A stretch of DNA of 63,124 nt from Acidimicrobiales bacterium (GCA_038256565.1 JBBSKG010000001.1:1-63124), one strand, 5' to 3'. Numbered from the stretch's first letter, positions 22,091-47,331 are shown. Notes: generated from the letters alone by a model not told the origin. A program made the numbers and translations.

Positions 22091-22190
22091 GGACCAGTGA
22101 CAAAACTACTTGCGCGGCGCTTACATCTTTAACCTTTGTGGTGTATTCACTTTCGGCCTTCGGCCGCGCAAGTAGTTTTGTCTCGGGTCC
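22091..22190 (+). repeat. copy 1 of 100-nt long-stem palindromic interspersed element
   Basis: GGACCAGTGACAAAACTACTTGCGCGGC-44 nt core-GCCGCGCAAGTAGTTTTGTCTCGGGTCC. Identical to copy 2. Flanked TAA|..|TAA. Lies between the clpP start and tRNA-Leu. Confidence 0.9.
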
Positions 22191-22244
22191 TAAAGGTTCG
22201 AGTTCGCTACATCACGCAATAGGCTGTGAGAACCACACCATTCT

Positions 22245-22328
22245 GCGGGCGTGGCGGAATTGGCAGACGCGCCGGGTTTAGGTCCCGGTGGGCTCAGGCC
22301 CTTGGAGGTTCAAGTCCTCTCGCCCGCA
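22245..22328 (+). tRNA. tRNA-Leu (anticodon UAG), class II with long variable arm
   Basis: Acceptor GCGGGCG/CGCCCGC+A, anticodon stem CCGGG/CCCGG with loop TTTAGGT, variable arm TGGGCTCAGGCCCTT, T-arm GGAGG-TTCAAGT-CCTCT. CCA is not encoded. Confidence 0.85.
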
Positions 22329-22398
22329 CTCATTATCAAGAGTTAGAATTGCCATCACGCCAAAAACGCCTAGGCAGTAGAAAGGTGGGGGGGAATAA

Positions 22399-24798
22399 AT
22401 GACCTTTACCCCAGCCATGGCCAGTGTGATGATGGCTATTAGCAGCCTGATCTGCCTGGGATTCGCAATCTACGTTCAAGGTCACCGACGAGCAGTAGCG
22501 AGCCGAAGCCTGACAGCCGTGCTCGTATGTTCCGCACTTTGGGGAGCTTTCTACGGCCTAGAACTCTTCTCCAAAGACCCGGCCACCAAGGAACTCTTTG
22601 GTGACTTTAAATACGTTGGCGTCGTCTTATTGCCAATGAGTTGGCTGGTATTCACATTGCAATTTACCGGGCGCAGTCAACTGGTAACCCGAAAGATGCT
22701 TGGATTATTGGCAATAGAGCCAATCATTGTACTTGGGCTCCTGGCATTTCCCCAAACGCACGACCTCGTCCGGTTCTATCCCCCGCCTCCACTTGATTCA
22801 TTCCCGATCATCGAAGTCGGTCCCTTATTTTGGGTCAACGTCGTTTATTTAAACACTCAATCTTTTGTGGCCACCTTATTATTCCTCATAACTCTTGCCC
22901 GCCACGCCCCTCAATACCGCCGCCAAAGACTATGGCTCGCCACCGGATACCTACTGCCATGGGTCCCTAACGTCCTGCACAACTTCAGCATTTATCCAGC
23001 AACTTATTTAGACCTGACACCTGTTGCTCTCAGCATCACTGGCCCAATTCTCGTTTGGGGATTTTTCCGCTCGCGCTTACTTGATATCGCCCCCGTTGCA
23101 CGCAAGCGACTAGTAGACAACATGCCCGATGGTGTGATCGTCGTCGACACCTACCTGCGAATCGTCGATCACAACCCTGCCGCTTCTCAACTTCTTGAGC
23201 TTGGTTCCAAAGATCTAATCGGCGTGAATCTTTCTCTTAGCATTCCGCCGCTCGCCCAAAAGCTCAAACACGGCCAAGGAGTAGGCACACATCAGATCTT
23301 AAAACCAGACAGACCCAGAGCAGGCGATCGCAATACAACAAACAGCGTTCAGGCACTTGAAATAGAAATAACAACCATTGAAGGTTTTGCCACAAGCACC
23401 GATAGATCTGCTGGCTATTTACTCATATTACGTGACATAACAAAACGGCTTGCGAACGAAGAGCGCCTGCAAGCACTGGCTCATTCCGACCCACTAACAG
23501 GGTTAGCAAACAGGACACTCTTTAATGATCGGCTAAACCAAACCCTCGCCCAAGCGAGGCGAAATAACCAATCGTTTGGACTGTTGTTTCTCGATCTCGA
23601 TCGTTTCAAAGTCGTCAACGACACTTTGGGCCATGAGATCGGTGACGGCCTCTTGCAAAAAGTTGGCACCCGCCTACAACAATCCTTGAGAGAAGAAGAC
23701 ACCATCGCACGCATTGGTGGCGATGAGTTCACAGTGCTCATGCCTGAACTCAGTGATGCAATCGATGCGAGCATTGTCGCGAGTAAGCTCATCAAAGCCC
23801 TTGAACAACCATTTGTGGTTCAAGGGCATGAATTATTTATAACAGCGAGCATTGGCGTGGCTAGCTATCCATTAAATGGTGCAAGTGCACACGACCTAAC
23901 GAGTTGCGCTGACAGTGCAATGTATTTAGCCAAGTCGCAAGGGAAAAACCGGTATCACCTAGCGGGCAACTGCTCCGCACGTAGTGGGGACCATCTTCGT
24001 TTTGAAAGCGACCTACGTCATGCTCTCGACAATGGCGATCTGGAACTCCACTTCCAGCCCTGCATTACCATCGGTAACAACTCAATAGACCAACCCGACG
24101 CCATAGACTCGCTCGAAACCCTAGCCAGATGGCACCATCCAAGACGTGGGCAGATCGCTCCCTCTGTCTTCATTCCAATGGCTGAAGAAGCTGGCTTAAT
24201 GCCTGCCCTCGGCCTTTGGGTACTCGAAAAAGCCTGTCAACAGGCCAGTGAATGGCGTAGCGAACACGGTCTTCGTGTGAATATTTCAGTGAATATTTCA
24301 GCGTTTCAGCTTGACCATCATCTACTTGCTCGCCATGTTTTAGAAGCAATCGAACACTCGGGTTTGGCACCTGGCCAACTCATACTGGAACTGAGCGAAC
24401 GCACGGTAGTGGTCGAGTGTGACCCCGTCATTGCTGAACTTGAGACCCTACGTGCCAGTGGTGCCAGGCTAGCTCTTGACGACTTTGGCACCGGCCACAC
24501 GTCGCTTGGCCAACTCAAACGCCTGCGTTTTGACCAATTGAAGATTGACCAAGAGTTCGTCAGAGACATCACCACCGACCCAGACAACGCTGTCATCGTT
24601 GCGGCCATGATCAATCTTGGCCACTCGCTTGGCATGAACGTCGTTGCCGAAGGCGTCGAGAACTCTGACGAACTAGAAGCGCTGCGCTTGTTGGGTTGCG
24701 ACGCCGTACAGGGCTACATGCTTGGAAGGCCTATTCCACATGATGAAATGACCACCTTGTTGGTAGAACGAGCCGCTAGTAGCGATCCTGCCAACTAA
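22399..24798 (+). CDS. membrane sensor with PAS-GGDEF-EAL domains (c-di-GMP turnover)
   Basis: About 7 N-terminal TM helices and a PAS-like segment. GGDEF intact (RIGGDEF). The EAL domain has ETL in place of EAL (LETLARWHHP) and also carries DDFGTG and QGY. Confidence 0.85.
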   Translation: MTFTPAMASVMMAISSLICLGFAIYVQGHRRAVASRSLTAVLVCSALWGAFYGLELFSKDPATKELFGDFKYVGVVLLPMSWLVFTLQFTGRSQLVTRKMLGLLAIEPIIVLGLLAFPQTHDLVRFYPPPPLDSFPIIEVGPLFWVNVVYLNTQSFVATLLFLITLARHAPQYRRQRLWLATGYLLPWVPNVLHNFSIYPATYLDLTPVALSITGPILVWGFFRSRLLDIAPVARKRLVDNMPDGVIVVDTYLRIVDHNPAASQLLELGSKDLIGVNLSLSIPPLAQKLKHGQGVGTHQILKPDRPRAGDRNTTNSVQALEIEITTIEGFATSTDRSAGYLLILRDITKRLANEERLQALAHSDPLTGLANRTLFNDRLNQTLAQARRNNQSFGLLFLDLDRFKVVNDTLGHEIGDGLLQKVGTRLQQSLREEDTIARIGGDEFTVLMPELSDAIDASIVASKLIKALEQPFVVQGHELFITASIGVASYPLNGASAHDLTSCADSAMYLAKSQGKNRYHLAGNCSARSGDHLRFESDLRHALDNGDLELHFQPCITIGNNSIDQPDAIDSLETLARWHHPRRGQIAPSVFIPMAEEAGLMPALGLWVLEKACQQASEWRSEHGLRVNISVNISAFQLDHHLLARHVLEAIEHSGLAPGQLILELSERTVVVECDPVIAELETLRASGARLALDDFGTGHTSLGQLKRLRFDQLKIDQEFVRDITTDPDNAVIVAAMINLGHSLGMNVVAEGVENSDELEALRLLGCDAVQGYMLGRPIPHDEMTTLLVERAASSDPAN

Positions 24799-25379
24799 CG
24801 GTCTAGGTCTAGTTCTCTAGCTAAAATCCGAAAGGCCTGGCCGCGATGCGAAAGATCATGTTTCTCATCGGCGCTCATCTCACCAAACGTTCGTCCGTCT
24901 CCTTCGTCGGGTATGAAAATTGGGTCGTATCCAAAACCGTTAATGCCCCAGGCCTCAAGTGCTATGGAACCCTCACAGACACCTTCTGCCCATAGTTCGG
25001 GGCCGTCTGGGTAAGCGATCAGCGCAATAGTGCGCCACCGAGCACTGCGATCTTCGACACCTTCCATTGCTTCTAACAACTTGGCCATATTGTCTTCGGC
25101 CGTTGCATTAGGTCCCGCATAGCGAGCCGTGTGGACTCCAGGTTTTCCTTCGAGGACAGTTACTTCTAAACCAGTGTCGTCGGCAGCAGTCGCCAAACCC
25201 GTGGCCATCAAAACTGCATGTGCCTTGATGCGAGCGTTGTCGAGGAAAGTTTTTCCATCTTCAATCGGCTCGGGAATATCGGGGGGTCGACTGATCAACT
25301 CGATATCGTCAACCAGGTCAAGCAACTCCATGATCTCGGCGGCTTTTCCAGGATTGGCCGAAGCCACAATTAACTTCAT
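24795..25379 (-). CDS. rdgB: non-canonical purine NTP pyrophosphatase (RdgB/HAM1)
   Basis: MKLIVASANPGKAAEI...DDTGLEV...GFGYDPIF...SHRGQA. Start trimmed to ATG 25379. Confidence 0.85.
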   Translation of the reverse strand: MKLIVASANPGKAAEIMELLDLVDDIELISRPPDIPEPIEDGKTFLDNARIKAHAVLMATGLATAADDTGLEVTVLEGKPGVHTARYAGPNATAEDNMAKLLEAMEGVEDRSARWRTIALIAYPDGPELWAEGVCEGSIALEAWGINGFGYDPIFIPDEGDGRTFGEMSADEKHDLSHRGQAFRILARELDLDR

Positions 25380-25389
25380 ATGCACGCTT

Positions 25390-26127
25390 TCATATACGCG
25401 GCGCTGGAGGCTTAGCCAATATTTCTGCCTGCATGGCAAGAATGTCTTTGATGCCACCAGCTGCGAGATCAGCTAACGCGTCAAGCTCGCCACGGGTGAA
25501 GGGCTTGCCCTCGGCTGTTCCCTGCAACTCAAGAAATGCACCGCTACCGTTCATGACGACATTCATGTCGACCTCGGCTCCGGAATCTTCTATGTAAGCG
25601 AGGTCAAGCATCGGAGCACCGTCAACCATGCCCACAGAGATAGCGGCACAAGCCTCTGTCAATGGGTGACCCTTGAGGCGTCCCGTCTGCATCATGCGGC
25701 TCAATGCATCGTGCAGCGCAACGTAGCCCCCACAAATGGCAGCTGTACGAGTGCCGCCATCGGCTTGGATCACATCGCAGTCAACAATGATCTGCACTTC
25801 AGCCATTGCACTCAGATCAGTAACCGCCCTAAGCGAGCGCCCGATCAGGCGCTGAATCTCTTGGGTACGCCCACTCTGGCGACCCTTTGCTGCCTCTCTC
25901 GCTACCCGCTCACCAGTGGAGCCGGGTAGCAGTGAATACTCCGCCGTAACCCATCCCTTGCCTGTGCCCTTGAGCCACCTCGGTATCTGTTCATCAACAG
26001 ACGCCGTGCACAACACTTTCGTCTTGCCGAAACTCACGAGCACCGAACCGGCGGCCAACTCAGTGAAATCACGCTCAAAACTGACTGGGCGCAGTTGGTT
26101 ATCAGCTCGGCCGTCATTGCGGGTCAT
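25390..26127 (-). CDS. rph: ribonuclease PH
   Basis: [13 protein letters not shown]...[16 protein letters not shown]...[16 protein letters not shown]. Confidence 0.9.
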
Positions 26128-26864
26128 ACAGAAACCTCATACCTCTCGTCGATGGCAGCGACCTCGACCGGTGCCCCAAAAGCAGCAGTTGCCTGTGATT
26201 GAGACTCGGCGATATCGATACCGGGTTGAATGTGGGTAATCACCAATCGTGTTACACCAGCTGCCTTAGCCGAAATGCCAGCCTGACGAGCGGACAGGTG
26301 TTGCACGGTACGTTCTTGGTCCACAGGAATGGAAGCCTCGCACAAAGCCAGATCAATGCTTGCACCCAGCTCAGATAACGACCACCCAGCACCCGTGTCT
26401 GACGAGTAACCAAGTGATGCACCTTCTTCGCTGTCTATGCGTACAGCAAGAGTCTCGGGCCCGTGGTCTGTGCGAAAGAATCGCAAAGTCAGTTGCCCAA
26501 TTCGGACTGTGTCGCCGCTTTTCACGACCGTCCAATCAAAGGCGGGTTCGAGCTTGCCGTTTACCTCTTGAGCAAGGCGACGAACCTCGGCAGGCGAATA
26601 GACGGCCACCCCTATACGCTTTCGAATGTAACGCACAACGTTGTGATAGGTGAGCGCATCAACCCAGTGGTCGGGGTGAGCGTGGGTCAACACGACTGCA
26701 TCGAGTGTGTCGAGGTCAATATGGCGTTGCAGGTTGGCGAGTGTTCCTGGGCCAGCGTCTAGCCAAATAGACACGCCTCCTCCCTCAACCAAATAACCAC
26801 TGCACGCTCCGCCTGGCCCTGCATAGGAACCGGAACAGCCAAGCACGGTAACGATCAAGCTCAT
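26124..26864 (-). CDS. MBL-fold metallo-hydrolase
   Basis: THAHPDH metal motif. Conserved murI-MBL-rph-rdgB arrangement. Confidence 0.75.
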
Positions 26865-26898
26865 AAAGTCACCCTGTCATTCGTAACCCTGTCATTCG

Positions 26899-27723
26899 TC
26901 ACCATTGAATGGCCTCGACGGCATCAAGCTCGGGACCAAGTAGACGTTGGCCCAGATGGCGAAACCATTCACTGTCACCTGACGATAAAAAGCGATGACG
27001 GCCAGGGCCCGTTGTGGAGCTACGCGTTGAATCACGTGCAAGCGAAGATGTCATCAACAGATTCCTTATCTCAAAAGCAGTCTCGTCAGCCGACGACACC
27101 AGCACCACGTCGCGACCAACCACGTCGCTGATTGTTCGAGCTAAAAACGGATAATGCGTGCAACCGAGCAACAACGTGTCAACCTTCGCCTCACGTACCG
27201 GTGCAAGCAGGCGCTCGGCCAGTACGTGCACCTGATCACTCGCCGTCTCATCTCGTTCAACAAACTCAACGAAACCTGGACACGCCGCACACACCAGCTC
27301 GGTATCACTTGCCTGATTAATTCCTTCAAATGCTCTTTGATATGCACCTGAAGCAACCGTCCCCACTGTGGCGATGAGTCCAATTCGTTTATTGCGAGTA
27401 GCTGAAAATGCCGCCCGTACGCCTGGCCCAATCACACCAACAACGGGAATGGGCAGTGCTGCTTGAAGTTCATCGAGCGCAGCTGCCGATGCGGTGTTAC
27501 AAGCAACCACTAGCATCTTCACATCAAAGCGTTCCACCAGATAGCTGGCGATCTCGTGAGCAAAATCTCGCACCTCACCAAGTGGCCTCGGCCCATACGG
27601 GTAACGAGCTGTATCTCCTAAATAAACGAGATGTTCGGCAGGCAACAAGTCAATAAGAGCGCGGGCAACGGTCAGTCCTCCAAAACCACTATCGAACATG
27701 CCAATCGGACGTTCGTCCACCAA
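26899..27723 (-). CDS. murI: glutamate racemase
   Basis: GMFDSGFGGLTV...VVACNTAS...LGCTHYP catalytic Cys motifs. Confidence 0.9.
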   Translation of the reverse strand: MVDERPIGMFDSGFGGLTVARALIDLLPAEHLVYLGDTARYPYGPRPLGEVRDFAHEIASYLVERFDVKMLVVACNTASAAALDELQAALPIPVVGVIGPGVRAAFSATRNKRIGLIATVGTVASGAYQRAFEGINQASDTELVCAACPGFVEFVERDETASDQVHVLAERLLAPVREAKVDTLLLGCTHYPFLARTISDVVGRDVVLVSSADETAFEIRNLLMTSSLARDSTRSSTTGPGRHRFLSSGDSEWFRHLGQRLLGPELDAVEAIQW

Positions 27724-27799
27724 GACAGGCTACGCCGTTGAAATCACCCCCAGGTGATCTCACAGGTGATCTCAACGGCGTAAAGCCCCAGCGACATAA

Positions 27800-29560
27800 C
27801 TAATTCAGGTCAAGCACCCAAACATCTTGCGGAGAGTTGAAGGCGGCAAAGCCAACATGCTCAAATCCACCAAACACATATATACGATTTCCCGCAGCCA
27901 CTATGTTGTCAATGGAACGAGCCTTAAATGGTGTAGGTGCGGTCTGGTGCCATTGGGCGTCCGTGCCAAGGACCTGCAACATCGGCGGCCTATCTTTAGG
28001 CCCACCCATGTCTTTAGGCCCACCCATGAAGTCAGTCGAGACCCAAGTGTCACCCACCCATTTCAAACTGCTCGCACCAGAAGGACCTTCGCGCCATGTC
28101 CATGTTGAACGATCGAGATAGCGCAAACGATCAAGGTTCAAAGTTCTTTTAGTCTCTTGGCCAATTGATCCGCTATACCCAATGCTTCCACCCAATTTCG
28201 CAGCTTCTTCATCCGTAAGACTCGCATCAATTGGTACGCCTTCGGTCGAATAGATCTGGCCCGACATCCGGCCTTCCATTATTCCTATACTCCAGTCACC
28301 AGAAACTGATGGCAGCTCCCGCCACTCGTTTTGGGAAATATCAAAGAACGCGAAGTGAGTTTCAGCATTAGGAAGGCCACTGAATGTGAATGTGCGTACC
28401 TCATCATTGATGTCTGTCTCATCTGATGGGATTAATGAAACACTTCTAACGAGGACGCCCTCATCGAAAGACCTAACGCCCAAAGGGTAGCCCTGACCCC
28501 ACCAATAGCCCTCGCTCGTCTTTGTGCTTTTCGCTAACAATGGGCTGTCTGGAAGTACTTCCCAACTATCTTCACCAACGTCATAGATCGCACCATCAAG
28601 TAATATCGCCGACCCTCCCTTGTCCAAGACCATGTTTTCGGTCTCGAGAGGAATACCTCCCCATGCCACAAGTTCCCCGTCTACAACAACCACCTCCGTG
28701 ATCAAACGTGGACTCAAGGGTGGACCCTCCACTTCACGCCAGTCAGGTTCACCCCTCGACCATATGAAGCCTTTGGATTGTTTTGACTTAATTGTCATAG
28801 GCATCAGAACGAGCGAATCGTCCACCCAGGAAATCGTCATGTCTAGCCATGTATCGGTTACCTCACCAACGCCATTCTCATCACCCGACTGAGTGACCAC
28901 GTTACGTAAAGCTTGCTCGTATGGCCCAAACTTTTCAGTTGTAAACCAAGACAGTCTTTGTACATCAAAGATAGAAAACTGCAATATCTTCCCCGTGAGG
29001 CTTGGGACCACAAGTGGATATCTCTCATCTCCCGTAACCACCTCAAGAATGTTGACTGCAGAACTCGACAGCTCTGATTTTTCCAAAGTCTCCCAACCAT
29101 TAGATGCGGGGTCATATACCGCTGCGTCGTGATAGACGTCTCCCTCAGCATCTGGCGCTCGTCGGGTTAATACGAGAATCCGACCATCATCGAGTGCTTG
29201 ATCGACCACAATCGTTTGATAAGTGAATGGAAGATTAGGCAATTGACTCCAAGTGCCTTTGGGGGCGTCGGGGCTGGCGACGAGTTTTGCCAACTCACCA
29301 TTAACTGGAGCGCCTGCGTTTCCAGTGACCTTTAGGCCAGGTGATTGGTCGTTGTTCACGACATTGACGACCATCACAAGGGCGACAGCAACCGCTACTG
29401 GAATTACCCAGCGAATGTTTCTTGAAGTAAACCCACGGCCTGAACCATTGCTCCCGCTTGAAGTGCGTAGCGGCGAGACTTCAGGAACGGGTAGCAGTGC
29501 CTCATCGACAAGGGCTTTGGCGACAGCGCGCATTTTTAAATCGAGATCGATATCAGACAT
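27800..29560 (-). CDS. putative anti-sigma factor: short cytoplasmic N-terminus, one TM helix, large extracytoplasmic beta-propeller/Kelch-like domain
   Basis: 8-nt overlap with the upstream ECF sigma gene. TM segment WVIPVAVAVALVMVVNVV. Repeated W/G-rich blade-like segments. Assigned from architecture and context only. Confidence 0.5.
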   Translation of the reverse strand: MSDIDLDLKMRAVAKALVDEALLPVPEVSPLRTSSGSNGSGRGFTSRNIRWVIPVAVAVALVMVVNVVNNDQSPGLKVTGNAGAPVNGELAKLVASPDAPKGTWSQLPNLPFTYQTIVVDQALDDGRILVLTRRAPDAEGDVYHDAAVYDPASNGWETLEKSELSSSAVNILEVVTGDERYPLVVPSLTGKILQFSIFDVQRLSWFTTEKFGPYEQALRNVVTQSGDENGVGEVTDTWLDMTISWVDDSLVLMPMTIKSKQSKGFIWSRGEPDWREVEGPPLSPRLITEVVVVDGELVAWGGIPLETENMVLDKGGSAILLDGAIYDVGEDSWEVLPDSPLLAKSTKTSEGYWWGQGYPLGVRSFDEGVLVRSVSLIPSDETDINDEVRTFTFSGLPNAETHFAFFDISQNEWRELPSVSGDWSIGIMEGRMSGQIYSTEGVPIDASLTDEEAAKLGGSIGYSGSIGQETKRTLNLDRLRYLDRSTWTWREGPSGASSLKWVGDTWVSTDFMGGPKDMGGPKDRPPMLQVLGTDAQWHQTAPTPFKARSIDNIVAAGNRIYVFGGFEHVGFAAFNSPQDVWVLDLN

Positions 29561-30101: not shown

Positions 30102-30175
30102 CGCCGGTATAACCCACCAAACACGCCTAATGGGTGACAGGCAATAGAAAAAACTTAGGAGGAGAAGCCAGCCTC

Positions 30176-31123: not shown

Positions 31124-31146
31124 TAGAAGCCTCCTCTCTTATGTGT

Positions 31147-38106: not shown

Positions 38107-40503
38107 TCAAGAAACCAACCGTTGCAGCAATGAACTCATCGCCAATGGAGCCAGTGGACGGTGCAGATAGAAACCCTGACCTTCATCGCAACCTAACCGA
38201 AGCAGTTCTTCCAATTGGCTACTGTTCTCAATGCCCTCTGCTACAACAACTAGACCGAGCTCATGAGCAAGTTGCACAACCGAGGCCACGATTGCTCGGT
38301 CTGCTGGCCTGTTGGCCACACCATCAATGAAAGAGCTGTCAATCTTCAACTCTGAAAGTGGATAACGAGCCAAATAGGCGAGCGATGACCACCCCTTGCC
38401 AAAATCATCAACTGCAAGACGGAGACCAAGATCAGATAAGGCCGTGACGTTAGCCAACACCTCTGGTGAATCGTTCATAACTACGCCTTCGGTGATCTCA
38501 AGGACCAAGCTCGACGCCGCCAAACCAGTCTCTTGAAGCACCGATTCGACCATTCCGACACAGGCTGGGTTATCAAGCTGTACCGCCGAAAGGTTCACTC
38601 CAACGCGAGGTGCTGCATCACCCATGAACTGCTGCCAGCCTCGGGCCTCGTGACAAGCCTGCGCCAGCACGCTACGGCCCAGCTCCCAGATAAGGCCGGT
38701 TTCTTCTGCCATCGGGATGAACTCATCAGGGTGAATAGCGCCGTGCACGGGGTGCTGCCACCGAGCGAGAGCTTCTACTGAAACAATCACTCCGGTCGCA
38801 AGCGATACCACCGGTTGATAGGCCACTGTGAGGCCTCCCGCTCTCAAGGCATGCCGTAGTTGGGTCTCGGTTTCCATGCGTCGACGAGCCCGCGCTCGAA
38901 GATCTAGATCAAACAATTCATAGCGTGAACGACCAGCCCGCTTCGCTCGATACATCGCCAGGTCAGCATCACGCAACAGGGTGGTTGCTTCTATGGACAA
39001 CACTTCTTCGCTGCTCGCCACCCCAATGCTGCACGAAACGACGAGTTCCTGACTTCCCAACAAAATCGGTTTAGTGAAACCATCCAAAATGGTGCCAGCC
39101 ATATCCATTGCCCTATTGCTTGTGGACCCATGCAATTGAATCGCAAACTCATCAGCACCGATACGGGCAACCATCCCCCCTGAACCAACCAATGCGACCA
39201 AACGCGCTGCTACCGCATCGAGTAATAAATCACCAAGCTTGTGACCTAAACTGTCGTTGATAGTCTTAAAGCGATCAAGATCGCATACCAAGACAGAGGC
39301 AATGCCTTCGTTCAGTGCCCCATCTAGACGCTCAAGAAACCACGCTCGATTAGGAAGCCCAGTGAGGTGATCATGAGACACCTCATAAGCAAGACGATCT
39401 TCTAGGCCCTGGGTCTCTTCCATATGGAGCGACGCCTCAAGCGCAGAGCCAGCCTGTGCCGCCAGAAGTTCAAGGCACTCAACCTCGGCAGGCACAACCT
39501 GACGGACGGCAGTTGTTCCCACCCCGATGACTCCTATCACTTCACCGGTTCTCCAAATTGGAACCCCTATCACAACATGAAAACCCTCGGCACGTAACTC
39601 TTCTGATGCTGGCTCCCAGTCTTGATAATGATCTACCACCACGGTGTGGCCTCTGGTGCGAACCTCACCGACTACCCCAAGATCAGCAATGCGAGAATCA
39701 GATACGTAAGCACTCGGCATTCCAACGTGACGGACAAGGGACCACTCTCCGAGCGGGTCAACCATAAATAAATCGACCGCTTCAAAACCAAGTTTCATTG
39801 CACCCTCAAGTGCAATATCCAGTACTTCTCCGCTCTCTAAGGTTGTCATCGAACGGCTTGTCTCAGCAGTTAGCCTCAACAACTCAGAACGTTTCTCAGC
39901 ATGTAAGGCTTGACGTTTAGCACGTTTCAGCTGACGGTTCGTAAGGTCCCCGAGCAGACCCGTCATGAGTACTACCAGAAAAATCGCCGTAAGTTGGTAA
40001 GTCAAAATGCCAGGTTCAGCACCACGATTTGCCATGTCATTTACACCCATGGAGATCGCGACGTAGGCCGCTCCTGTCGTTAACCACGTGAACATTCCTG
40101 CGCGCAAACCAAAGCGCGCTGAAGCCTCATAAATAGGAATCATCAATAATGCATAACCCGGATGACGTCCCTCATAAATCACCGCACCCAGCATTAGAAG
40201 CGTTGTCATGGCGTCAAGAACGATTTCGACCCTTGCACTGCGAATCAAAGCAACGCGATCTCTGACGCTTCCCATGCGAGAAATAAAATTGGTCAGCAAT
40301 AAAATGATTGCCAGCACAACGCCGATCCAAAACGGACTGAATGGATATTCTTTGCCTTCGGGCGGTATGTAGATGGCAAAGCGAAAGACCACCAGCACCA
40401 CTGCAACGTTGCGTACGGGACGCAACAGGCGTGCTACCTCATCGAGACGTTCTTCGTCCGCCTTTAATTCGGCACCTGATAACCGTGAGTACTCAGTAGT
40501 CAT
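38107..40503 (-). CDS. membrane GAF-GGDEF-EAL protein (degenerate GADEF, canonical EAL; likely c-di-GMP phosphodiesterase)
   Basis: About 6 N-terminal TM helices and a GAF-like segment. RIGADEF replaces GGDEF. VEALARWQHP, DDFGKG and QGF are present. Confidence 0.85.
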   Translation of the reverse strand: MTTEYSRLSGAELKADEERLDEVARLLRPVRNVAVVLVVFRFAIYIPPEGKEYPFSPFWIGVVLAIILLLTNFISRMGSVRDRVALIRSARVEIVLDAMTTLLMLGAVIYEGRHPGYALLMIPIYEASARFGLRAGMFTWLTTGAAYVAISMGVNDMANRGAEPGILTYQLTAIFLVVLMTGLLGDLTNRQLKRAKRQALHAEKRSELLRLTAETSRSMTTLESGEVLDIALEGAMKLGFEAVDLFMVDPLGEWSLVRHVGMPSAYVSDSRIADLGVVGEVRTRGHTVVVDHYQDWEPASEELRAEGFHVVIGVPIWRTGEVIGVIGVGTTAVRQVVPAEVECLELLAAQAGSALEASLHMEETQGLEDRLAYEVSHDHLTGLPNRAWFLERLDGALNEGIASVLVCDLDRFKTINDSLGHKLGDLLLDAVAARLVALVGSGGMVARIGADEFAIQLHGSTSNRAMDMAGTILDGFTKPILLGSQELVVSCSIGVASSEEVLSIEATTLLRDADLAMYRAKRAGRSRYELFDLDLRARARRRMETETQLRHALRAGGLTVAYQPVVSLATGVIVSVEALARWQHPVHGAIHPDEFIPMAEETGLIWELGRSVLAQACHEARGWQQFMGDAAPRVGVNLSAVQLDNPACVGMVESVLQETGLAASSLVLEITEGVVMNDSPEVLANVTALSDLGLRLAVDDFGKGWSSLAYLARYPLSELKIDSSFIDGVANRPADRAIVASVVQLAHELGLVVVAEGIENSSQLEELLRLGCDEGQGFYLHRPLAPLAMSSLLQRLVS

Positions 40504-40596
40504 CGCTTCTAAACAGTGCGATCAGTGTCAATATCAGTGATGAGTGGAAATGCAACTTTGACACATTGAAGAGGCTACAAGATATGCGCTCACTAA

Positions 40597-40696
40597 GGAC
40601 CAGTGACAAAACTACTTGCGCGGCGCTTACATCTTTAACCTTTGTGGTGTATTCACTTTCGGCCTTCGGCCGCGCAAGTAGTTTTGTCTCGGGTCC
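40597..40696 (+). repeat. copy 2 of 100-nt palindromic element
   Basis: Identical to copy 1. Flanked TAA|..|TAG. Lies between the prfB stop (40726) and the start of the GAF-GGDEF-EAL gene (40503). Confidence 0.9.
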
Positions 40697-40725
40697 TAGG
40701 AACGTCCTGGGCTCGACTGACTCTT

Positions 40726-41829
40726 TCATCCGTTCCCACGCTCCCAGCGTAAAAAAGCTTCCATGAAAGAATCAATCTGTCCGTCCAACACTCCGTCGAC
40801 ACTGCCAGTCTCATGATTGGTGCGTAAATCTTTCACCAATTGATACGGCGCTTGTACATAAGATCTGATCTGGTTGCCCATTGCTGCTTGCGATGCTGTT
40901 CCTGAGATCGCTTCCATATCGGCCCTGCGCTGTGCCCTCTGACGATCGACCAGTTTGGCAGCAAGAATCTGCATAGCCCTCGCCTTGTTCTGATGTTGGC
41001 TGCGTTCGTTCTGACAAGAAACCACGATGCCCGAAGGATTATGCGTGATGCGAACTGCCGAGTCGGTCACGTTTACGTGTTGTCCTCCAGCGCCCGACGA
41101 ACGATAAGTGTCGATTCGAAGATCTTTCTCGTCAATCTCAACCTCATCAGAAGCATCTTCAATAAATGGGGTTATATCAATCGAAGCAAAACTCGTTTGG
41201 CGACGCGACGCTGCGTCGAAAGGCGAGATGCGTACTAAGCGATGAACGCCTTGCTCTCCACGCATCCACCCATATGCAAAGCGGCCCTTGACCATAAACG
41301 TTGCCGACAACAGGCCAGCTTCCTTCCCAGCTGAAACCTCGTCGATCTCGGTTGCAAAACCCTTTGTCTCTGCCCAACGCAGATACATACGCAGCATCAT
41401 CTCGGCCCAGTCCTGAGCGTCAGTGCCTCCCTCGCCTGCATGAATTTCACAAATGGCATCGGACTCATCATGTTCGCCAGCAAAAAGCGAACGGAGTTCC
41501 AACTCGTCAAGACGCGTCACAAGCATGGCAACACCTTGTGAAATCTCAGATTCAAGCGTCTCATCACCCTCTTCTCGAGCTAGCTCGTAAAGGGTTTCAA
41601 CGTCTCCAAGCTCGCCGAGCATTTCATCTATCAAAGCAACATCATCACGAACATTCGAAAGTGCCGAGGTCACTCGACGAGCTTCATCTTGGTCGTCCCA
41701 AAGATCTGGACGAGATGCAGCCTCTTCCAATTCCATCAGTCGGACGCGTTGATCAGCAATACGCAAATATTGTTCTGCCTCGCCAATACGTTTTTGGAGT
41801 CCCGCTATTTCGTCAGTGAAGTCCTTCAC
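40726..41829 (-). CDS. prfB: peptide chain release factor 2
   Basis: SPF and GGQHVN motifs. Continuous ORF with no frameshift site. Start trimmed to GTG 41829, 1 nt after the secA stop ([15 protein letters not shown]...). Confidence 0.9.
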
Positions 41830-41830
41830 A

Positions 41831-44551
41831 TTAATTTCCGTGGCAGAGCTTGAATTTTTTGCCACTCCCGCACCAGCATGGATCGTTGCGGCCAACTTTT
41901 TCTTCGGCTGACTTCACAAGAGGCGTATTTACCGATTCTTCCTCAATTTGTTGGAGAATATTCAACGGCTCTCCTGTTGCCTCTGCCTCGGCAACAGCGG
42001 TAGCCAGCATGGAATCTGAGCCCTGAACTGGGTCTTCAGGGGCGCTATAAGTCAGGTTCGTAACCTCTTCGTCTGCTTCCTCGGCTGGAATAACTTCGAG
42101 ATGCATGACGTACTTGACGTAAGAATCGGTCACCACGCCCATCATGGAAGAGAACATGGCAAAGCCTTCATGCTGCCACTCGACCAGTGGGTCTTTCTGG
42201 CCCATCGCCCGAAGATGGATGCCTTCTTGTAAATAGTCCATGTCATAAAGATGCTCACGCCAGTTTGCATCTATCACTCGAAGCATCACTTGGCGCTCTA
42301 TGTCTCTCATGGTCTCAGCGCCAATCGTTGCTTCACGTTGTTCAAATTGCTCAATGGCCTCTGAGGTAAAGGCTTCAACGACAGCGTCAACATCGCCAGT
42401 ATGAGCAAAGTCTTCAACACTAAAACGCGTCGGAAAATACTCGTTGGCCTCGGTTATAAGTCCCTCAAGATCCCAGTCCTCAGGCAGATCAGACACGCAG
42501 GCATTGCGGACGACCCCTTCGAGAGTTTCCTTCAGGCTCGAAACGGTTGCCTCGCGCAAGTCGTCACCTTCAAGCACCTGGTTGCGTCGCCGGTAGATGA
42601 CCTTTCGTTGCTCGTTCATCACCTCGTCATATTTAAGAACGTTCTTTCGAATCTCCGCGTTACGAGCCTCGACCGTGCTTTGAGCACGCTCAATGGCACG
42701 GTTAACCATCTTTGCCTCAATAGGCACATCATCAGGAAGGGTCTTGCCCATAACCCAACTCATGGCACCTGTAGCAAACAATCGCATGAGTTCATCTTCA
42801 AGAGACAAATAGAAACGGCTTTCGCCAGGGTCACCTTGGCGCCCTGATCGGCCTCGAAGCTGGTTGTCAATGCGACGACTCTCGTGGCGCTCAGTGCCAA
42901 GCACATAGAGACCACCAAGTTCACGAACCTTGTCGCCCTCGGAGCGACATTCCTGTTGGAACCTATCTAGCAACTTGGCGTAGAGCACTTGGCCTTCTTC
43001 TGTTTCAAACTCAACGCTCTGAGCAGCAACTTCACGAGCTGCCAGACCTTCCGGGTTACCACCAAGAAGAATGTCGACACCTCGACCTGCCATGTTCGTA
43101 GCGACCGTAACGCCCTTGAGTCGTCCTGCTTGGGTTACGATCTCGGCTTCGCGCGTGTGTTGTTTAGCGTTGAGCACTTCATGAATAATGCCCCGACGAG
43201 TTAGAAACTGAGAGAGTCGCTCAGACTTCTCGACCGAGACAGTACCAACCAATACTGGCTGGCCCCGATCGTTATGTTCAGCAATGTCTTCAACCACTGC
43301 ATTGAACTTGGCGTCTTCAGTCATATAAATAAGGTCGCCGTTGTCAACACGAGCAGGTGCCCTATTTGTAGGAATCGGCACAACCGCAAGGTTGTATGTG
43401 CTTGAGAACTCAGCAGCTTCAGTCTGGGCCGTACCAGTCATGCCAGAGAGCTTGCCGTAAAGACGGAAGTAATTTTGAAGGGTGATTGTGGCCAGCGTCT
43501 GGTTTTCTTCCTTGATCTTGACGCCTTCTTTTGCCTCAACTGCCTGGTGAAGACCCTCAGACCAACGCCGACCATCAAGAATACGCCCAGTGAACTCATC
43601 GACGATCTTTACTTCGCCGTCTGCGATCAAATAGTCACGATCACGTTTATAAAGTTCCTTAGCTCGCAGGGCTGCTTGCAATTGGTGCACAAGGTTTTGC
43701 GAAAGCTCGTCATAGAGGTTCTCTACCCCAAGAGCTTGTTCGACCTTGGCAATACCCGAGTCAAGAGGGGCAACATGGCGTTTCTCTTCATCGACGTCAT
43801 AGTCAACATCGCGTTCAAGACCTCGAACCAGACCAGCAAACTTGTAATAAAGCTGAGCCGCATCTGCCAAGCGTCCGCTGATAATCAACGGCGTACGGGC
43901 CTCGTCGATGAGGATGGAGTCGACCTCATCAACGATGGCAAACCCGTGACCACGTTGAACTTTGGCTTCAAGGCTCAAAGCCATGTTGTCGCGGAGGTAG
44001 TCAAAGCCAAACTCGTTATTTATTCCATAGGTCACGTCGCACGCATAAGCAGCACGCTTTTCATCTGAAGTGGTGATCTCAGGAATCACAAGTCCTACGC
44101 TTATTCCCAGCCAGCGATGTATTTGACCCATCCAAGCAGCGTCACGCTTGGCTAAATAGTCGTTGACGGTGATGAGATGAACACCCTTGCCAGCAAGACC
44201 GTTTAGATAGGCCGGAAGCGTTGAAACCAGCGTCTTTCCCTCACCGGTCTTCATCTCGGCAATCCAACCAAAATGAAGAGCAGCCCCACCCATGAGCTGT
44301 ACGTCATAGTGACGCTGTCCAATGGTGCGTTGTGCCGCCTCGCGGGTTACAGCGAAGGCTTCTAGTAACAAGTCGTCGAGGTCTTCGCCGTTGTCGAGAC
44401 GCTGGCGGAACTCGCCCGTCTTGGCTCGCAGCGCCTCATCAGACAAGGTACTCATCTCGGCCTCAAGAGCGTTGATATCTGGGACAAGGCTCGCAACGGC
44501 CTTGACCCGACGGCCTTCACCAATACGCAAGATTCGATCTAGTGGTCCCAC
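41831..44551 (-). CDS. secA: preprotein translocase ATPase SecA
   Basis: [11 protein letters not shown]-terminus, MKTGEGKTL Walker [20 protein letters not shown], and a C-terminal zinc finger [14 protein letters not shown]. Start trimmed to GTG 44551. Confidence 0.9.
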
Positions 44552-44623
44552 GAAAAGAAGTCTACTGGTGAAGAGCCCCAGCCTTGGACGCAACAACTGG
44601 TCTAGGCCAGACGAGCGCGTTAA

Positions 44624-44722
44624 GGACCAGTGACAAAACTACTTGCGCGGCGCTTACATGTTTAACCTTTGTGGTGTATTCACTTCGGCCTCCGGCCGCG
44701 CAAGTAGTTTTGTCTCGGGTTC
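44624..44722 (+). repeat. copy 3 of the palindromic element (99 nt, 1-nt deletion in core)
   Basis: Has the same 28-nt arms. The last arm ends GGGTTC. Flanked TAA|..|TAG. Its last base is shared with the response-regulator stop codon (44722-44724). Confidence 0.9.
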
Positions 44723-45405
44723 TAGGCGTCGGTGTCGAGCAATTTCTCCCGCATGGCAAACATAACGGCTTCAGTGCGAGAGTGCAGATGGAGCTTCTCC
44801 AAAATATTTCGCACATGATTCTTGGCCGTGTTTTGCGTGATTCCCAATTTCTCGCCGATCTCGCGATTAGTACAACCTCGCGCCACGAGTTTTAAAACCT
44901 CGAGCTCACGCTCAGTCAGATGCGGTCGTTCAGGTGACCAACCGTCAGACTCACGAGAAAGACTGGCAAACTCAACTATCAGCTTGGACGCCATAGAAGG
45001 AGTGATAAGTGTTTGTCCGTCCATAAGCGCATGTACTGCCTCGGCAACCTCGCCGATTGATATTTCTTTTAGCAAATAACCGTGAGCCCCAGCCTTAATA
45101 GCCTTGAACAGGTCGTCTTCTTCATCGCTAACGGTCAGCATAATTACCCGAGTCGTAGGTGCCGATGCGCCAATCAGACGGGTCGCTTCGATGCCATTCA
45201 TCTTTGGCATGCGAACATCCATAAGCACGACGTCGGGCATTAACTCCTGAGTCAAACTCACGGCAGCCTCGCCGTCACCGGCTTCACCTACAACCTCTAT
45301 ATCGTCCTCGCTCTCAAGAACGAGGACGAGTCCACGGCGAAACAACTCATGGTCGTCCACAATGAGCACCCTGATTGGTTCAGTTGGCTCTCGGTTATCA
45401 GCCAT
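44722..45405 (-). CDS. NarL/FixJ (LuxR-type HTH) response regulator
   Basis: Receiver domain (VLIVDDH...DVVLMDVRMP...K) plus a C-terminal LuxR HTH (LTERELEVLKLVARGCTNREIGEKLGITQNTAKNHV). Confidence 0.85.
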   Translation of the reverse strand: MADNREPTEPIRVLIVDDHELFRRGLVLVLESEDDIEVVGEAGDGEAAVSLTQELMPDVVLMDVRMPKMNGIEATRLIGASAPTTRVIMLTVSDEEDDLFKAIKAGAHGYLLKEISIGEVAEAVHALMDGQTLITPSMASKLIVEFASLSRESDGWSPERPHLTERELEVLKLVARGCTNREIGEKLGITQNTAKNHVRNILEKLHLHSRTEAVMFAMREKLLDTDA

Positions 45406-45413
45406 TATTTTGT

Positions 45414-46043
45414 TTAACCCGCTTCGTCGATAAGCCCTACATTGCCATCGTGACGGACATAAATCACGGCAGCTCGGTCAGTTGCGGAATTCGAAAAGAA
45501 GTAAAAACCGTGTCCTAACAGTTCCATCTTTTCAGCAGCCTCATCTGGTGTCATCGGCTCCATAGCAAAGGACTTGACCTTTACGATGACCGAACCCTGA
45601 GAACTGACCGTTGATTGATGCGTATTCGCAGTATCTCGTTCATCCTCAGTCACGTCAGATAAGTGATTTGTATTCGCTAGGGCAAAATCAAGGAAGTCAG
45701 GCTCGCCAGCAAGCACGGCCTCGCGGGGACGAGAATGAGAACGTGTGACGAGCTTTGTTTTTACCTTGTGAAGCTGGTGTTCGAGCTTTGCAACAACACC
45801 ATCGACCGCCGCATATGGGTCGCCAGCGGCAACCTTTGCCCGAAGATGGTGACCATGGCCCTCAACTGTCACCTCGCAGATGTCTTTCTCTGCAATGCGG
45901 GGGTTTTTCTCTTCGAAGAAATGAACCTCAGCTCGTTCGATTCCCTCCAAAACACGACTAAGTCGCCCAATCTTTTCCTCGGTTGTAGAACGTAAAGCCT
46001 CAGTCAGCTCAATGTTGCGGCTGCTCACGGTGATGTCCATCAC
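45414..46043 (-). CDS. hpf: ribosome hibernation promoting factor, long form
   Basis: N-terminal S30AE/YfiA domain (ITVSSRNIELTEALR...) and a C-terminal dimerisation domain (PMTPDEAAEKMELLGHGFYFFSN). Confidence 0.85.
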   Translation of the reverse strand: MMDITVSSRNIELTEALRSTTEEKIGRLSRVLEGIERAEVHFFEEKNPRIAEKDICEVTVEGHGHHLRAKVAAGDPYAAVDGVVAKLEHQLHKVKTKLVTRSHSRPREAVLAGEPDFLDFALANTNHLSDVTEDERDTANTHQSTVSSQGSVIVKVKSFAMEPMTPDEAAEKMELLGHGFYFFSNSATDRAAVIYVRHDGNVGLIDEAG

Positions 46044-46380
46044 GTCCTCCTAATGGTTGGTTTCAATTAACAAATTCGTTGCGTACGGCTGACCTGGTCT
46101 TTGACCCCACACTCGCCCGCTGAGGAAATAGCACAAGACAGTGTTGGCGGTTATCGAAGACAACCCAGCAACGCTGTGACCTCGCACGTTTTCCTTCTCG
46201 CACCCAAACCGCCAATCGGCTTGTGGCACGGCAGGACTTACATCTAAGCCGCACCATGCTCGGCGACCACAGGTCGCCTTACGTGGGTCGTTTCGCCTGC
46301 GACTGGCATCGACTTTCAACCACAGACCCGTACGCAACATGACCAATGATAAGCCATTTCGTTCGACAATTGTCGGGGAA

Positions 46381-46480
46381 GGACCCGAGACAAAACTACT
46401 TGTGCGGCCGAAAGCCAAAAAAGAATACACCACAAAGGTTAAACATGTAAGCGCCGCGCAAGTAGTTTTGTCACTGGTCC
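46381..46480 (-). repeat. copy 4 of the palindromic element (inverted orientation)
   Basis: Its reverse complement matches the consensus, except for the variable core hairpin (TTTTTTGGCTTTCGGCC) and one arm mismatch. Flanked TTA|..|TTC in element orientation. Confidence 0.9.
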
Positions 46481-46550
46481 TAATCACTCTGCTCTTTGTG
46501 CATCGACTCTTTGAGCATCGACACACCTGCCTGGTCCCTTGAGCCAGTTG

Positions 46551-47159
46551 TTACTTGTACTGAATAACTCGTGGCGTTCGTGCGGCACTTAACAACGCCA
46601 CGAAGTGCGCTCCGCCATCTCGTAATGCACCAGCTGCTGCAGCTGCACTGGTCCCACTGGTCATGACGTCATCAACTAACAAGATGCGGCTGGGACAACG
46701 ACCCAAAGCCGTAATAGGCGGACCAATTCTTCTAGATGCCAGATTTCGCCCAGTTTGAGCAGGACCAGGGTGATGGGTAAGCAAGCCTTTACTTGGAAGT
46801 GACAACTCTTTGGCCACCGCCTTGGCCAACAACTCCGCTTGATCGAAACCCCGTTTCCGTCTACGTCTTGAGGTTGTTGGAACCCACGTAACGACCTGAA
46901 AGTTGCCTGCCGTCGATGACGCAACAAGATTGGCCATTGCACGGCCCAGTCCAGGCACGACCGCTCGATTGTTGCCGTACTTCATCGCAGTGATAAGTCG
47001 CCTTGTGTGCCCTTCGTAAGAAAAAAGCGACCAGGCTACGTCTACACCCCGAGGTGGTGGTGCCGGAGGGGCTGGTTTCAACAAGTGCAGGCAGCCCCCA
47101 CACGGCACCTGACCACGACTTCCACAAACAGGACATGTCAACGCCAAGAACATCTTCAC
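46551..47159 (-). CDS. comF: ComF family protein (phosphoribosyltransferase fold with N-terminal Cys4)
   Basis: CPVCGS...CGGC zinc-ribbon and a PRT motif ILLVDDVMTSGTS. Confidence 0.75.
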   Translation of the reverse strand: MKMFLALTCPVCGSRGQVPCGGCLHLLKPAPPAPPPRGVDVAWSLFSYEGHTRRLITAMKYGNNRAVVPGLGRAMANLVASSTAGNFQVVTWVPTTSRRRRKRGFDQAELLAKAVAKELSLPSKGLLTHHPGPAQTGRNLASRRIGPPITALGRCPSRILLVDDVMTSGTSAAAAAGALRDGGAHFVALLSAARTPRVIQYK

Positions 47160-47231
47160 AACCCTATTTACAGGCTATGACACCAGCCGTCTGGAACTCA
47201 ATCACTATCGAGTTCTGAAAGATGTTGCGTA

Positions 47232-47331
47232 GGACCCGAGACAAAACTACTTGCGCGGCCAAAGGCCGAAAGTGAATACACCACAAAGGTTAAACATGTA
47301 AGCGCCGCGCAAGTAGTTTTGTCACTGGTGC
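47232..47331 (-). repeat. copy 5 of the palindromic element (inverted orientation)
   Basis: Its reverse complement matches the consensus (first arm GCACC instead of GGACC). Flanked by the direct trinucleotide TAC|..|TAC. Confidence 0.9.

What the first reader, a model, noticed from the sequence alone, without database searches (positions are those of the whole stretch)
22091..47331. Five copies of a ~100-nt long-stem palindromic element (MITE/REP-like or structured RNA) that I cannot assign to a known family
The copies are at 22091-22190 (+), 40597-40696 (+), 44624-44722 (+), 46381-46480 (-) and 47232-47331 (-). Copies 1 and 2 are identical, and the others differ at only a handful of positions.

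The architecture is GGACCAGTGACAAAACTACTTGCGCGGC - 44-nt core - GCCGCGCAAGTAGTTTTGTCTCGGGTCC. The two 28-nt arms are reverse complements at 26/28 positions. The first ~30 nt of the core (GCTTACAT[C/G]TTTAACCTTTGTGGTGTATTC) is invariant apart from one C/G position.

The last ~14 nt of the core is the only variable part. It always keeps a small GGCC..GGCC or GGC..GCC hairpin with different loops: TTCGGCCTTCGGCC, TTCGGCCTCCGGCC, TTCGGCCTTTGGCC and TTGGCTTTCGGCC.

One reading frame is stop-free in every copy ([12 protein letters not shown][S/C]LTFVVYS...). The 1-nt deletion in copy 3 shifts that frame, so conservation is at the nucleotide/structure level, not the protein level.

All copies lie in intergenic DNA. 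No transposase, RAYT or TnpB gene is present in the window.
Basis: seen in the sequence. Interest (0 to 1): 0.8.

Follow-up and report, generated by a model that had tools for sequence, protein, structure and literature searches.

The report
Recently active miniature transposon (MITE) copies
The five ~100-base hairpin repeats are copies of a small non-coding "hitch-hiker" transposon (a MITE) that has jumped very recently in an uncultured Acidimicrobiales bacterium: a real, mobile element of a well-known kind.

Summary
Five near-identical copies lie at the stated places, each with 28-nt arms pairing at 26 of 28 positions, and no Rfam family matches.

The element is a MITE, a non-autonomous DNA transposon.
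- **Structure:** This is TA at four window copies and TT at one (c4).
- **Empty sites:** relatives with conserved synteny carry empty sites holding a single copy of that dinucleotide. A MAG 99.6-99.8% identical over this region lacks copies 3 and 4. A ~95.7% relative lacks copies 2, 3 and 4. A ~93.5% relative lacks copy 1. Copy 5 is shared by all three genomes that cover its site and has a mutated left end.
- **Other genomes:** five more copies, 91-97% identical, sit at non-orthologous sites in two 64-67% GC Actinomycetota MAGs.
- **RNA reading:** the stem shows no compensatory changes, and the three changes that exist are one-sided.
- **Transposase:** none is in the window or in the 378 kb of related DNA held. 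The driver is inferred, most likely an IS630/Tc1-mariner-type enzyme, with an IS5 (IS427/ISL2)-type enzyme as the alternative.

This is a new member of a known kind. The closest analogues are RUP, Correia and ERIC. Interest is low to moderate.

The parts
22088..22192 (+). MITE copy c1. TA duplication at 22088-22089, 101-nt element at 22090-22190, TA at 22191-22192. It lies between clpP (minus strand) and tRNA-Leu (22245-22329, plus strand).
   Evidence: Searches give the sequence and duplication. The copy is present and 100% identical in L027 (GCA_051306095.1). It is absent in L029 (GCA_947085905.1, about 93.5-95% identical flanks).
40594..40698 (+). MITE copy c2. TA, 101-nt element at 40596-40696, TA. 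It lies about 28 nt downstream of the prfB stop codon, before the GAF-GGDEF-EAL gene. Both genes are on the minus strand.
   Evidence: The site is empty in L018, which reads ...CGCTCC TA GTGGGC.... The copy is present in L030.
44621..44724 (+). MITE copy c3. TA, 100-nt element at 44623-44722, TA. It was inserted into the stop codon of the LuxR-type response-regulator gene, 68 nt (in L018, empty site) upstream of secA. The empty site reads TAA. The filled site reads TA plus the element's terminal G, giving TAG.
   Evidence: The empty site gacgccTAacgcgc is found in L018 (~95.7% identical) and in L030 (99.6-99.8% identical).
46379..46483 (-). MITE copy c4. TT, 101-nt element at 46381-46481, TT. 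It lies 42 nt upstream of the raiA RNA (46080-46336, minus strand), which precedes hpf.
   Evidence: The empty site gagtgaTTccccgac is found in L018 and L030.
47230..47334 (-). MITE copy c5. TA, 101-nt element at 47232-47332, TA. Its left terminus is mutated, CGCACC instead of AGGACC. It lies 72 nt upstream of a 202-aa gene of unknown function.
   Evidence: The same copy with the same mutated end is in L030. It is also at the start of contig L018, where the assembly broke inside it.

Best explanation

**Anatomy.** The element is 100-101 bp and non-coding. Its two 28-bp terminal inverted repeats are AGGACCAGTGACAAAACTACTTGCGCGGC on the left and GCCGCGCAAGTAGTTTTGTCTCGGGTCC on the right. The 44-bp core is probably what remains of the two ends of a parent insertion sequence.

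**Mechanism.** A transposase encoded elsewhere in the genome binds the two repeats. It moves the element into a T-N dinucleotide, usually TA, and makes a 2-bp staggered cut. Repair of that cut duplicates the dinucleotide on both sides.

**Shown here.**
- The terminal inverted repeats.
- The 2-bp duplication.
- Filled and empty sites in close relatives.
- Dispersal to non-orthologous sites in other genomes.
- Very recent activity: two insertions separate genomes that are 99.6-99.8% identical over this region.

**Inferred.**
- The transposase family. An IS630/Tc1-mariner-type DDE enzyme is most likely. The IS427/ISL2 subgroups of IS5, or IS30, are alternatives.
- Whether movement is cut-and-paste or copy-out.
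- Any effect on neighbouring genes. When transcribed, a copy adds a 28-bp RNA hairpin to the message.
For: **Repeats and copies**
- Five copies, where shuffles predict none.
- Arms pair at 26 of 28 positions.

**Target-site duplication**
- The flanking dinucleotides match at 8 of 10 copies: TA six times, TT once, TC once. The other two copies differ by one base.

**Exact empty sites**
- c2, c3 and c4 are empty in L018. Each empty site keeps one copy of the dinucleotide.
- c3 and c4 are also empty in L030, which is 99.6-99.8% identical to the window over about 18.6 kb of flanking DNA (99.6% and 99.8% blocks; a further 1.7-kb block is 98.1%).
- c1 is absent in L029.

**Nested occupancy**
- c5 is in all three genomes that cover it.
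- c2 is in the window and L030. c1 is in the window and L027, which comes from the same MAG as L030.
- c3 and c4 are in the window only.
- No copy is present in the syntenic region of relatives with 86-87% SecA identity (L019-L026) or of the 64-65% GC relatives (L031-L034).
- The oldest copy, c5, has a damaged terminus.

**Other genomes**
- Five more copies, 91-97% identical, lie in two other Actinomycetota MAGs. Their sites are unrelated: CysRS|ThrRS, next to an enoyl-CoA hydratase, and after a histidine kinase.
- Contig L018 breaks inside a copy, which is typical of a dispersed repeat.

**Definition**
- Bacterial MITEs are described as under 200 bp, non-coding, with terminal inverted repeats, TA at their termini and target-site duplications (PMC2229807; PMC11602168).
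Against: **No partner transposase found.**
- There is none in the window.
- No further terminus-like sequence exists in the 378 kb held, allowing up to 5 mismatches in 24 nt.
- The exact 20-nt left arm occurs only in MITE copies across 185,579 representative genomes.

**Target not strictly TA.** Two sites are TT and TC. IS630/Tc1-mariner elements are strict for TA, by my own knowledge.

**Newest copies are not the most canonical.** c3 and c4 differ most from the consensus among the window copies. Either they moved from already diverged donor copies, or the polymorphism is due to loss.

**The MITE is more conserved than the genome around it.** It is about 96% identical between the window and the CAVURO MAG, where alignable DNA is 75-92% identical, lowest in the protein-coding stretches. 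Simple vertical decay does not explain this.
Confidence: 0.9

Rival explanations
1. The element is a MITE that the host also uses. When co-transcribed, the 28-bp hairpin would act as an RNase III site, an mRNA stabiliser or a U-tail-less terminator. Alternatively, the conserved core would carry a promoter or a protein-binding site. This adds to the MITE reading and does not replace it.
For: - The fold is very stable in either orientation.
- Copies sit inside a co-directional run of tightly spaced genes, hpf-RR-secA-prfB-GGDEF, and just upstream of tRNA-Leu and the raiA RNA.
- The whole 101 nt, core included, is about 96% identical between genomes whose coding DNA is 75-82% identical.
- Correia elements are proposed RNase III targets, and some carry an IHF site (PMC2229807).
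Against: - The same genes work without the element in genomes 99.7% identical.
- No sigma-70-like promoter and no terminator-like site was called inside any of the four copies scanned.
- There is no U-tract after the stem.
- Orientation relative to the genes is mixed.
- One-sided stem mutations are not compensated.
Confidence: 0.15
2. The element is a multi-copy structured non-coding RNA gene or a cis-regulatory RNA.
For: Fold z-scores are -6 to -9. Two copies lie in the same orientation directly upstream of RNA genes, tRNA-Leu and raiA.
Against: - No Rfam match at gathering score, nor at E<=10.
- 0 of 26 stem pairs show a change on both sides. The three changes seen are one-sided, and two of them break a pair.
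- Copies are present or absent between near-identical genomes, each with a 2-bp duplication.
- Copies 2 and 3 are antisense to the surrounding genes.
Confidence: 0.03
3. The element is a REPIN/REP-type repeat moved by a RAYT, or an IS200/IS605-derived palindromic element (PATE) moved by a Y1 transposase or TnpB system.
For: The element is a ~100-nt hairpin, it is intergenic, and it is multi-copy.
Against: - Those elements insert without a target duplication, next to a fixed tetra- or pentanucleotide (established knowledge). Here a 2-bp duplication is seen, and its second base varies with the target.
- Each arm is a single 28-nt sequence, not itself a REP-like short palindrome.
- No RAYT, TnpA-Y1 or TnpB is in the window.
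Confidence: 0.03
4. The repeats are old and immobile, and the polymorphism reflects precise deletions in the relatives.
For: c3 and c4, which are absent from the relatives, are the window copies most diverged from the consensus.
Against: - Each 'loss' would have to restore the site exactly, leaving one copy of a 2-bp repeat.
- It would have to happen independently in at least two lineages for both c3 and c4.
- All more distant relatives also lack these copies.
- The nested pattern fits successive gains.
Confidence: 0.03

Closest known systems
RUP (repeat unit of pneumococcus), a Streptococcus pneumoniae MITE attributed to IS630-Spn1
   Same: RUP is 107 bp and non-coding. It has terminal inverted repeats, inserts at TA dinucleotides and has highly similar copies taken to mean recent mobility (PMC2229807). 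The element here matches in size, termini, 2-bp TA duplication and high copy identity.
   Different: - There is no sequence relationship, and the host phylum differs.
- The arms here are much longer: 28 bp, against 9 contiguous pairs listed for RUP.
- A partner IS with matching ends is known for RUP but was not found here.
- Two of the ten insertions here are at TT or TC.
Correia / NEMIS elements of Neisseria
   Same: Correia elements are about 105-155 bp with 24-26-bp terminal inverted repeats and a TA duplication. They are intergenic, often co-transcribed, and form long RNA hairpins proposed as RNase III targets (PMC2229807).
   Different: There is no sequence similarity. No IHF site or promoter was detected here. 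The copy number seen so far is far lower. Any effect on transcripts is untested.
ERIC / IRU (MITEEc1) of enterobacteria
   Same: ERIC is a palindromic element of about 127 bp with TA at its termini and a target duplication. It is polymorphic between strains (PMC2229807).
   Different: ERIC has short terminal repeats (7 bp listed) and an imperfect internal palindrome. It is unrelated in sequence and host.
REPIN / REP elements with RAYT transposases
   Same: Both are hairpin-forming, intergenic, multi-copy repeats of about 100 nt.
   Different: REPINs are pairs of short REP palindromes and leave no target duplication. Here there are single 28-bp arms and a proven 2-bp duplication.

Membership tests
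MITE (non-autonomous class II transposon of prokaryotes) | Small size (tens to a few hundred bp) with no coding capacity | tested here: met
   The element is 100-101 bp, or 108 bp in L004. The stop-free frames are the by-product of a palindrome, have no start context, and one is broken by the 1-nt deletion in c3.
MITE (non-autonomous class II transposon of prokaryotes) | Terminal inverted repeats of at least 10-15 bp | tested here: met
   The 28-nt arms pair at 26 positions, and 98.7% of cells are paired across 10 copies.
MITE (non-autonomous class II transposon of prokaryotes) | Target-site duplication flanking each copy | tested here: met
   A 2-bp direct repeat matches at 8 of 10 copies. 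For c2, c3 and c4, empty sites in relatives carry the dinucleotide once.
MITE (non-autonomous class II transposon of prokaryotes) | Multiple dispersed copies with filled/empty polymorphism | tested here: met
   There are 5 copies in the window and 5 more at non-orthologous sites in two other MAGs. Four of the five window sites are empty in at least one close relative.
MITE (non-autonomous class II transposon of prokaryotes) | A full-length IS in the same or a related genome with matching ends, supplying the transposase | tested here: inconclusive
   None was found in the window, in 378 kb of related loci, among representative genomes by exact 20-mer, or in the plasmid and phage collections. 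Whole assemblies of the host genomes could not be searched.
IS630/Tc1-mariner-derived MITE | 2-bp duplication of a TA target | tested here: inconclusive
   The 2-bp length is met. TA is the duplicated dinucleotide at 6 of the 8 copies with matching flanks. c4 is TT, confirmed by its empty site, and L002 is TC.
IS630/Tc1-mariner-derived MITE | Terminal repeats similar to those of an IS630-family element | not testable with these tools
   ISfinder was not available and no parent IS was recovered. The IS5 (IS427/ISL2) and IS30 families also give 2-3-bp duplications, by my own knowledge.
REP/REPIN (RAYT-mobilised) or IS200/IS605-derived PATE | Insertion without target duplication, with a RAYT or Y1 transposase as partner | tested here: not met
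   A duplication is present. No such gene is in the window.
Curated structured RNA family (Rfam 15) | A score at or above a family's gathering threshold, and covariation supporting the structure | tested here: not met
   There is no match on any copy at gathering score, nor at E<=10 on c4 and c5. No pair has a change on both sides.
Intrinsic terminator | GC-rich hairpin followed by a U-tract | tested here: not met
   No terminator-like site was called within c2-c5 on either strand. The stem is followed by TA plus unrelated flank.

The most novel reading that the evidence does not exclude
The conservation may be more than a sign of youth. The whole 101 nt, including the 44-nt core, stays about 96% identical between lineages whose genomes differ by about 12 points of GC and whose coding DNA is only 75-82% identical. 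Insertions also occur at TT and TC as well as TA. Two readings follow. The element could be driven by a transposase outside the classical TA-strict IS630 group. Or the core, and not only the arms, could be needed for transposition or for a host-level RNA or DNA function that spreads horizontally within this Acidimicrobiales clade.
Probability: 0.1. Interest if true: 0.5.

Novelty: new member of a known kind. Interest (0 to 1): 0.25.

Why it matters
- It resolves an 'unassignable structured element' into an ordinary class of mobile DNA.
- It shows that transposition is going on now in an uncultured Acidimicrobiales lineage. Two insertions separate genomes that are 99.6-99.8% identical over this region.
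- The copies are usable strain-level markers, and they explain contig breaks in short-read assemblies of this group.
- New copies land next to core genes: in the stop codon of a response regulator just upstream of secA, after prfB, and 42 nt upstream of the raiA-hpf leader. Filled and empty strains are therefore natural test pairs for the effect of a 28-bp hairpin on expression.
- The ends give a precise probe for finding the still-unknown partner transposase.

Tried and rejected
**Searches that found nothing**
- Rfam at gathering score on the whole window, and at E<=10 on 46000-47500. Only raiA, tmRNA and tRNA matched, nothing on the element.
- Exact-arm scans of JGI metagenome contigs and of viral contigs.
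- The core pattern in the metagenome collection gave 12 hits, all chance matches with unrelated flanks.
- blastn of the element against the plasmid and phage collections.
- Full-text search for a 15-nt piece of the arm.
- Fuzzy search for solo or diverged termini in all 378 kb held found only the known copies.

**Look-ups and checks that gave nothing**
- Two exact-protein look-ups for window genes failed before a hit was found through a cluster.
- Promoter and terminator consensus scan over c2-c5 found nothing inside the element.
- A 2.44-kb two-gene insertion beside the c3 site in L030 was considered as the possible autonomous partner. I rejected it. It has no matching termini and no transposase domain, and it is flanked by a ~20-bp direct repeat.

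**Readings rejected**
- REP/REPIN and IS200/IS605 readings, because of the duplication.
- A zero-duplication parse, with insertion between T and A. It would make the element's first base co-vary with the target (A, T or C).
Full report
**1.

The 30-nt core pattern matches exactly five times in the window, at the strands and places given. Shuffled sequence gives no matches. Alignment shows copies 1 and 2 identical and the others 94-98% identical over about 105 nt. Similarity stops abruptly at both ends.

Each copy folds into one long hairpin, with dG -45 to -54 kcal/mol and z-scores of -6.1 to -8.9, on either strand. The 28-nt arms pair at 26 positions.

The window is a complete 63,124-nt contig of an NCBI MAG of an uncultured Acidimicrobiales bacterium.

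All copies are intergenic among housekeeping genes:
- clpP | c1 | tRNA-Leu
- GAF-GGDEF-EAL | c2 | prfB
- secA | c3 | LuxR-type response regulator
- hpf with its raiA leader RNA | c4 | 202-aa gene | c5 | SAH hydrolase

None of the 29 ORFs I scanned against Pfam, which include nearly all of the largest, has a transposase, RAYT or TnpB domain.

**2.

Trimmed precisely, every copy is a dinucleotide, a 100-101-nt element beginning AGGACC and ending GGGTCC, and the same dinucleotide again. The dinucleotide is TA at c1, c2, c3 and c5, and TT at c4.

I used SecA and the GGDEF-EAL protein next to c1 to pull syntenic contigs of close relatives. These gave exact empty sites.

| Site | Window (filled) | Relative (empty) |
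|---|---|---|
| c3 | GACGCC-TA-[element]-TA-ACGCGC | GACGCC-TA-ACGCGC in L018 and L030 |
| c2 | TCC-TA-[element]-TA-GTG | TCC-TA-GTG in L018 |
| c4 | GTGA-TT-[element]-TT-CCCC | GTGA-TT-CCCC in L018 and L030 |

L018 comes from Logan run SRR26787665 and is about 95.7% identical to the window. L030 comes from GCA_051306095.1 and is 99.6-99.8% identical to the window over about 18.6 kb of flanking DNA (a further 1.7-kb block is 98.1%).

- c1 is present and identical in L027, from the same MAG as L030. It is absent in L029 (GCA_947085905.1, about 93.5-95% identical), where the local sequence has also diverged.
- c5 is present in the window and in L030. It is also at the very start of contig L018, where the short-read assembly broke inside the repeat.
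- Relatives with 86-87% SecA identity (L019-L026) and the 64-65% GC relatives (L031-L034) have no copy in the syntenic 17-23 kb.

Occupancy is therefore nested:
- c5 is the oldest copy, and its left terminus is mutated to CGCACC.
- c2 and c1 came next.
- c3 and c4 are the newest and are found in the window only.

This is the signature of successive transposon insertions.

**3. Other genomes**

An exact 20-nt left-arm scan of 185,579 representative genomes found five more copies, and nothing else. They lie in two Actinomycetota MAGs with 64-67% GC: CAVURO01 (MFD09730.bin.1.134) and JACOTK01.

- They are 91-97% identical to c1.
- They sit at sites unrelated to those in the window: between cysS and thrS, next to an enoyl-CoA hydratase, and after a hybrid histidine kinase.
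- Their flanks are TA/TA twice, TC/TC once, and CA/TA and TT/TA once each.

The CAVURO MAG belongs to the same clade as the window. Its SecA is 90% identical and its synteny is the same. Its DNA is nevertheless 65% GC against 52-53% here, and its alignable DNA is only 75-92% identical, lowest in the protein-coding stretches.

The MITE is thus better conserved than the genome around it. That points to spread between lineages, or to selection among copies for transposition competence, and not to simple vertical decay.

**4. Tests of the RNA reading**

- No Rfam family matches any copy, at gathering score or at E<=10.
- Over 10 copies, 23 of 26 stem pairs never vary and none has a change on both sides.
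- The three changes that exist are one-sided, and two of them break a pair.
- Copies 2 and 3 are antisense to the surrounding genes, while copies 4 and 5 are in the sense orientation.
- No promoter-like or terminator-like site was called inside the four copies scanned.
- The 'small conserved hairpin' in the core is a TTCGGCC tandem repeat, present twice in most copies and three times in L004. It overlaps the top of the right arm, so its variability is best read as slippage and point mutation.

**5. Mechanism**

The terminal inverted repeats, the 2-bp duplication, the polymorphism and the dispersal are shown directly by the sequences.

That a transposase acting in trans binds the arms and inserts the element at a T-N dinucleotide through a 2-bp staggered cut is inferred from the standard behaviour of DDE transposons. 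A TA-preferring 2-bp duplication is the hallmark of the IS630/Tc1-mariner superfamily. RUP, thought to be moved by IS630-Spn1, is the classic bacterial case (PMC2229807).

The IS427/ISL2 subgroups of IS5 and the IS30 family also make 2-3-bp duplications, by my own knowledge, which I did not test. The TT and TC sites show that the target is not strictly TA. I therefore give about 0.45 to IS630-type and leave the family open.

The partner was not found:
- It is not in the window.
- It is not in the 378 kb of related DNA held, allowing up to 5 mismatches in 24 nt.
- It is not in the plasmid or phage collections.
- A 2.44-kb two-gene insertion lies about 30 nt from the c3 site in L030, but it has no matching ends and no transposase domain. 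It is a separate indel.

**6. A detail worth recording**

c3 landed inside the TAA stop codon of the response-regulator gene. The duplicated TA plus the element's terminal G rebuilds a TAG stop, so the protein is unchanged. In DNA with few TA dinucleotides, stop codons may be among the available TA targets; this is my inference and was not tested.

c4 landed 42 nt upstream of the raiA RNA that precedes hpf.

The insertion sites of c2, c3 and c4 are ordinary short spacers in strains that lack the element. Any regulatory effect of the added 28-bp hairpin is possible but unshown.

**7. Comparison and verdict**

By every testable defining feature the element is a MITE. The features are those in the published definitions: small size, non-coding, terminal inverted repeats, target-site duplication, dispersed copies, and filled/empty polymorphism.

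It works like RUP, Correia and ERIC but shares no sequence with them. I found no catalogued match, and ISfinder was not available.

It is a new member of a known kind. It is well documented here and currently active, but it is not a new type of system.

Noticed in passing
L030:7503-9943 (GCA_051306095.1), corresponding to window ~44609, about 30 nt from the c3 site: A 2.44-kb insertion is present in the 99.6-99.8%-identical relative and absent from the window. It carries two ORFs: 436 aa with a weak AAA_16 match, and 335 aa with no Pfam hit. Neither has a PADLOC hit. It is flanked by a ~20-bp direct repeat, TGGCCTAGACCAGT(T)GTTGC. It is a separate strain-specific indel between the response regulator and secA, of unknown nature.
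   Followed up: partly
window 44722-44724: MITE copy c3 sits inside the stop codon of the LuxR-type response-regulator gene. The empty site reads TAA. The filled site reads TAG, built from the duplicated TA plus the first base of the element, so the ORF length is unchanged.
   Followed up: yes
L031-L034 compared with window 31.8-54 kb: Relatives whose SecA is 90% identical at the protein level, with the same gene order, have 64-65% GC DNA. The window and its nearest relatives have 52-53%. This is a large GC shift within one clade of Acidimicrobiales.
   Followed up: partly
window 1-12000 and 60000-63124 compared with 12000-60000: GC content is 0.59-0.64 at both ends of the contig and 0.50-0.58 in between. 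L029 joins sequence homologous to window 60533-60984 directly to the PemK/RHH region near window 20.7 kb. That suggests a rearrangement, or a differently placed segment, between relatives.
   Followed up: no
window 46080-46336 (-): A full-length raiA RNA motif (RF03072, 165 bits) lies directly upstream of hpf (45414-46043). It is conserved at 86-89% even in the relatives where most DNA is only 75-80% identical.
   Followed up: no
window 17122-21334 (-): There is a 1186-aa protein with an RNase_H_2-like domain plus a superfamily-1 helicase (AAA_11/AAA_12). Next to it is a PemK toxin / RHH antitoxin pair at 20733-21334. The helicase region is missing or different in L029.
   Followed up: no
window 40726-41895 (-), prfB: The longest prfB ORF (389 aa) overlaps the 3' end of secA. 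Gene calls in relatives vary between 367 and 385 aa. This may reflect the programmed +1 frameshift known in many prfB genes (my own knowledge) or differing start-codon calls.
   Followed up: no
L018:1-30: Short-read contig L018 from run SRR26787665 begins inside the right arm of a MITE copy (c5). The element therefore fragments short-read assemblies of this lineage, and copy numbers in MAGs are probably underestimates.
   Followed up: partly
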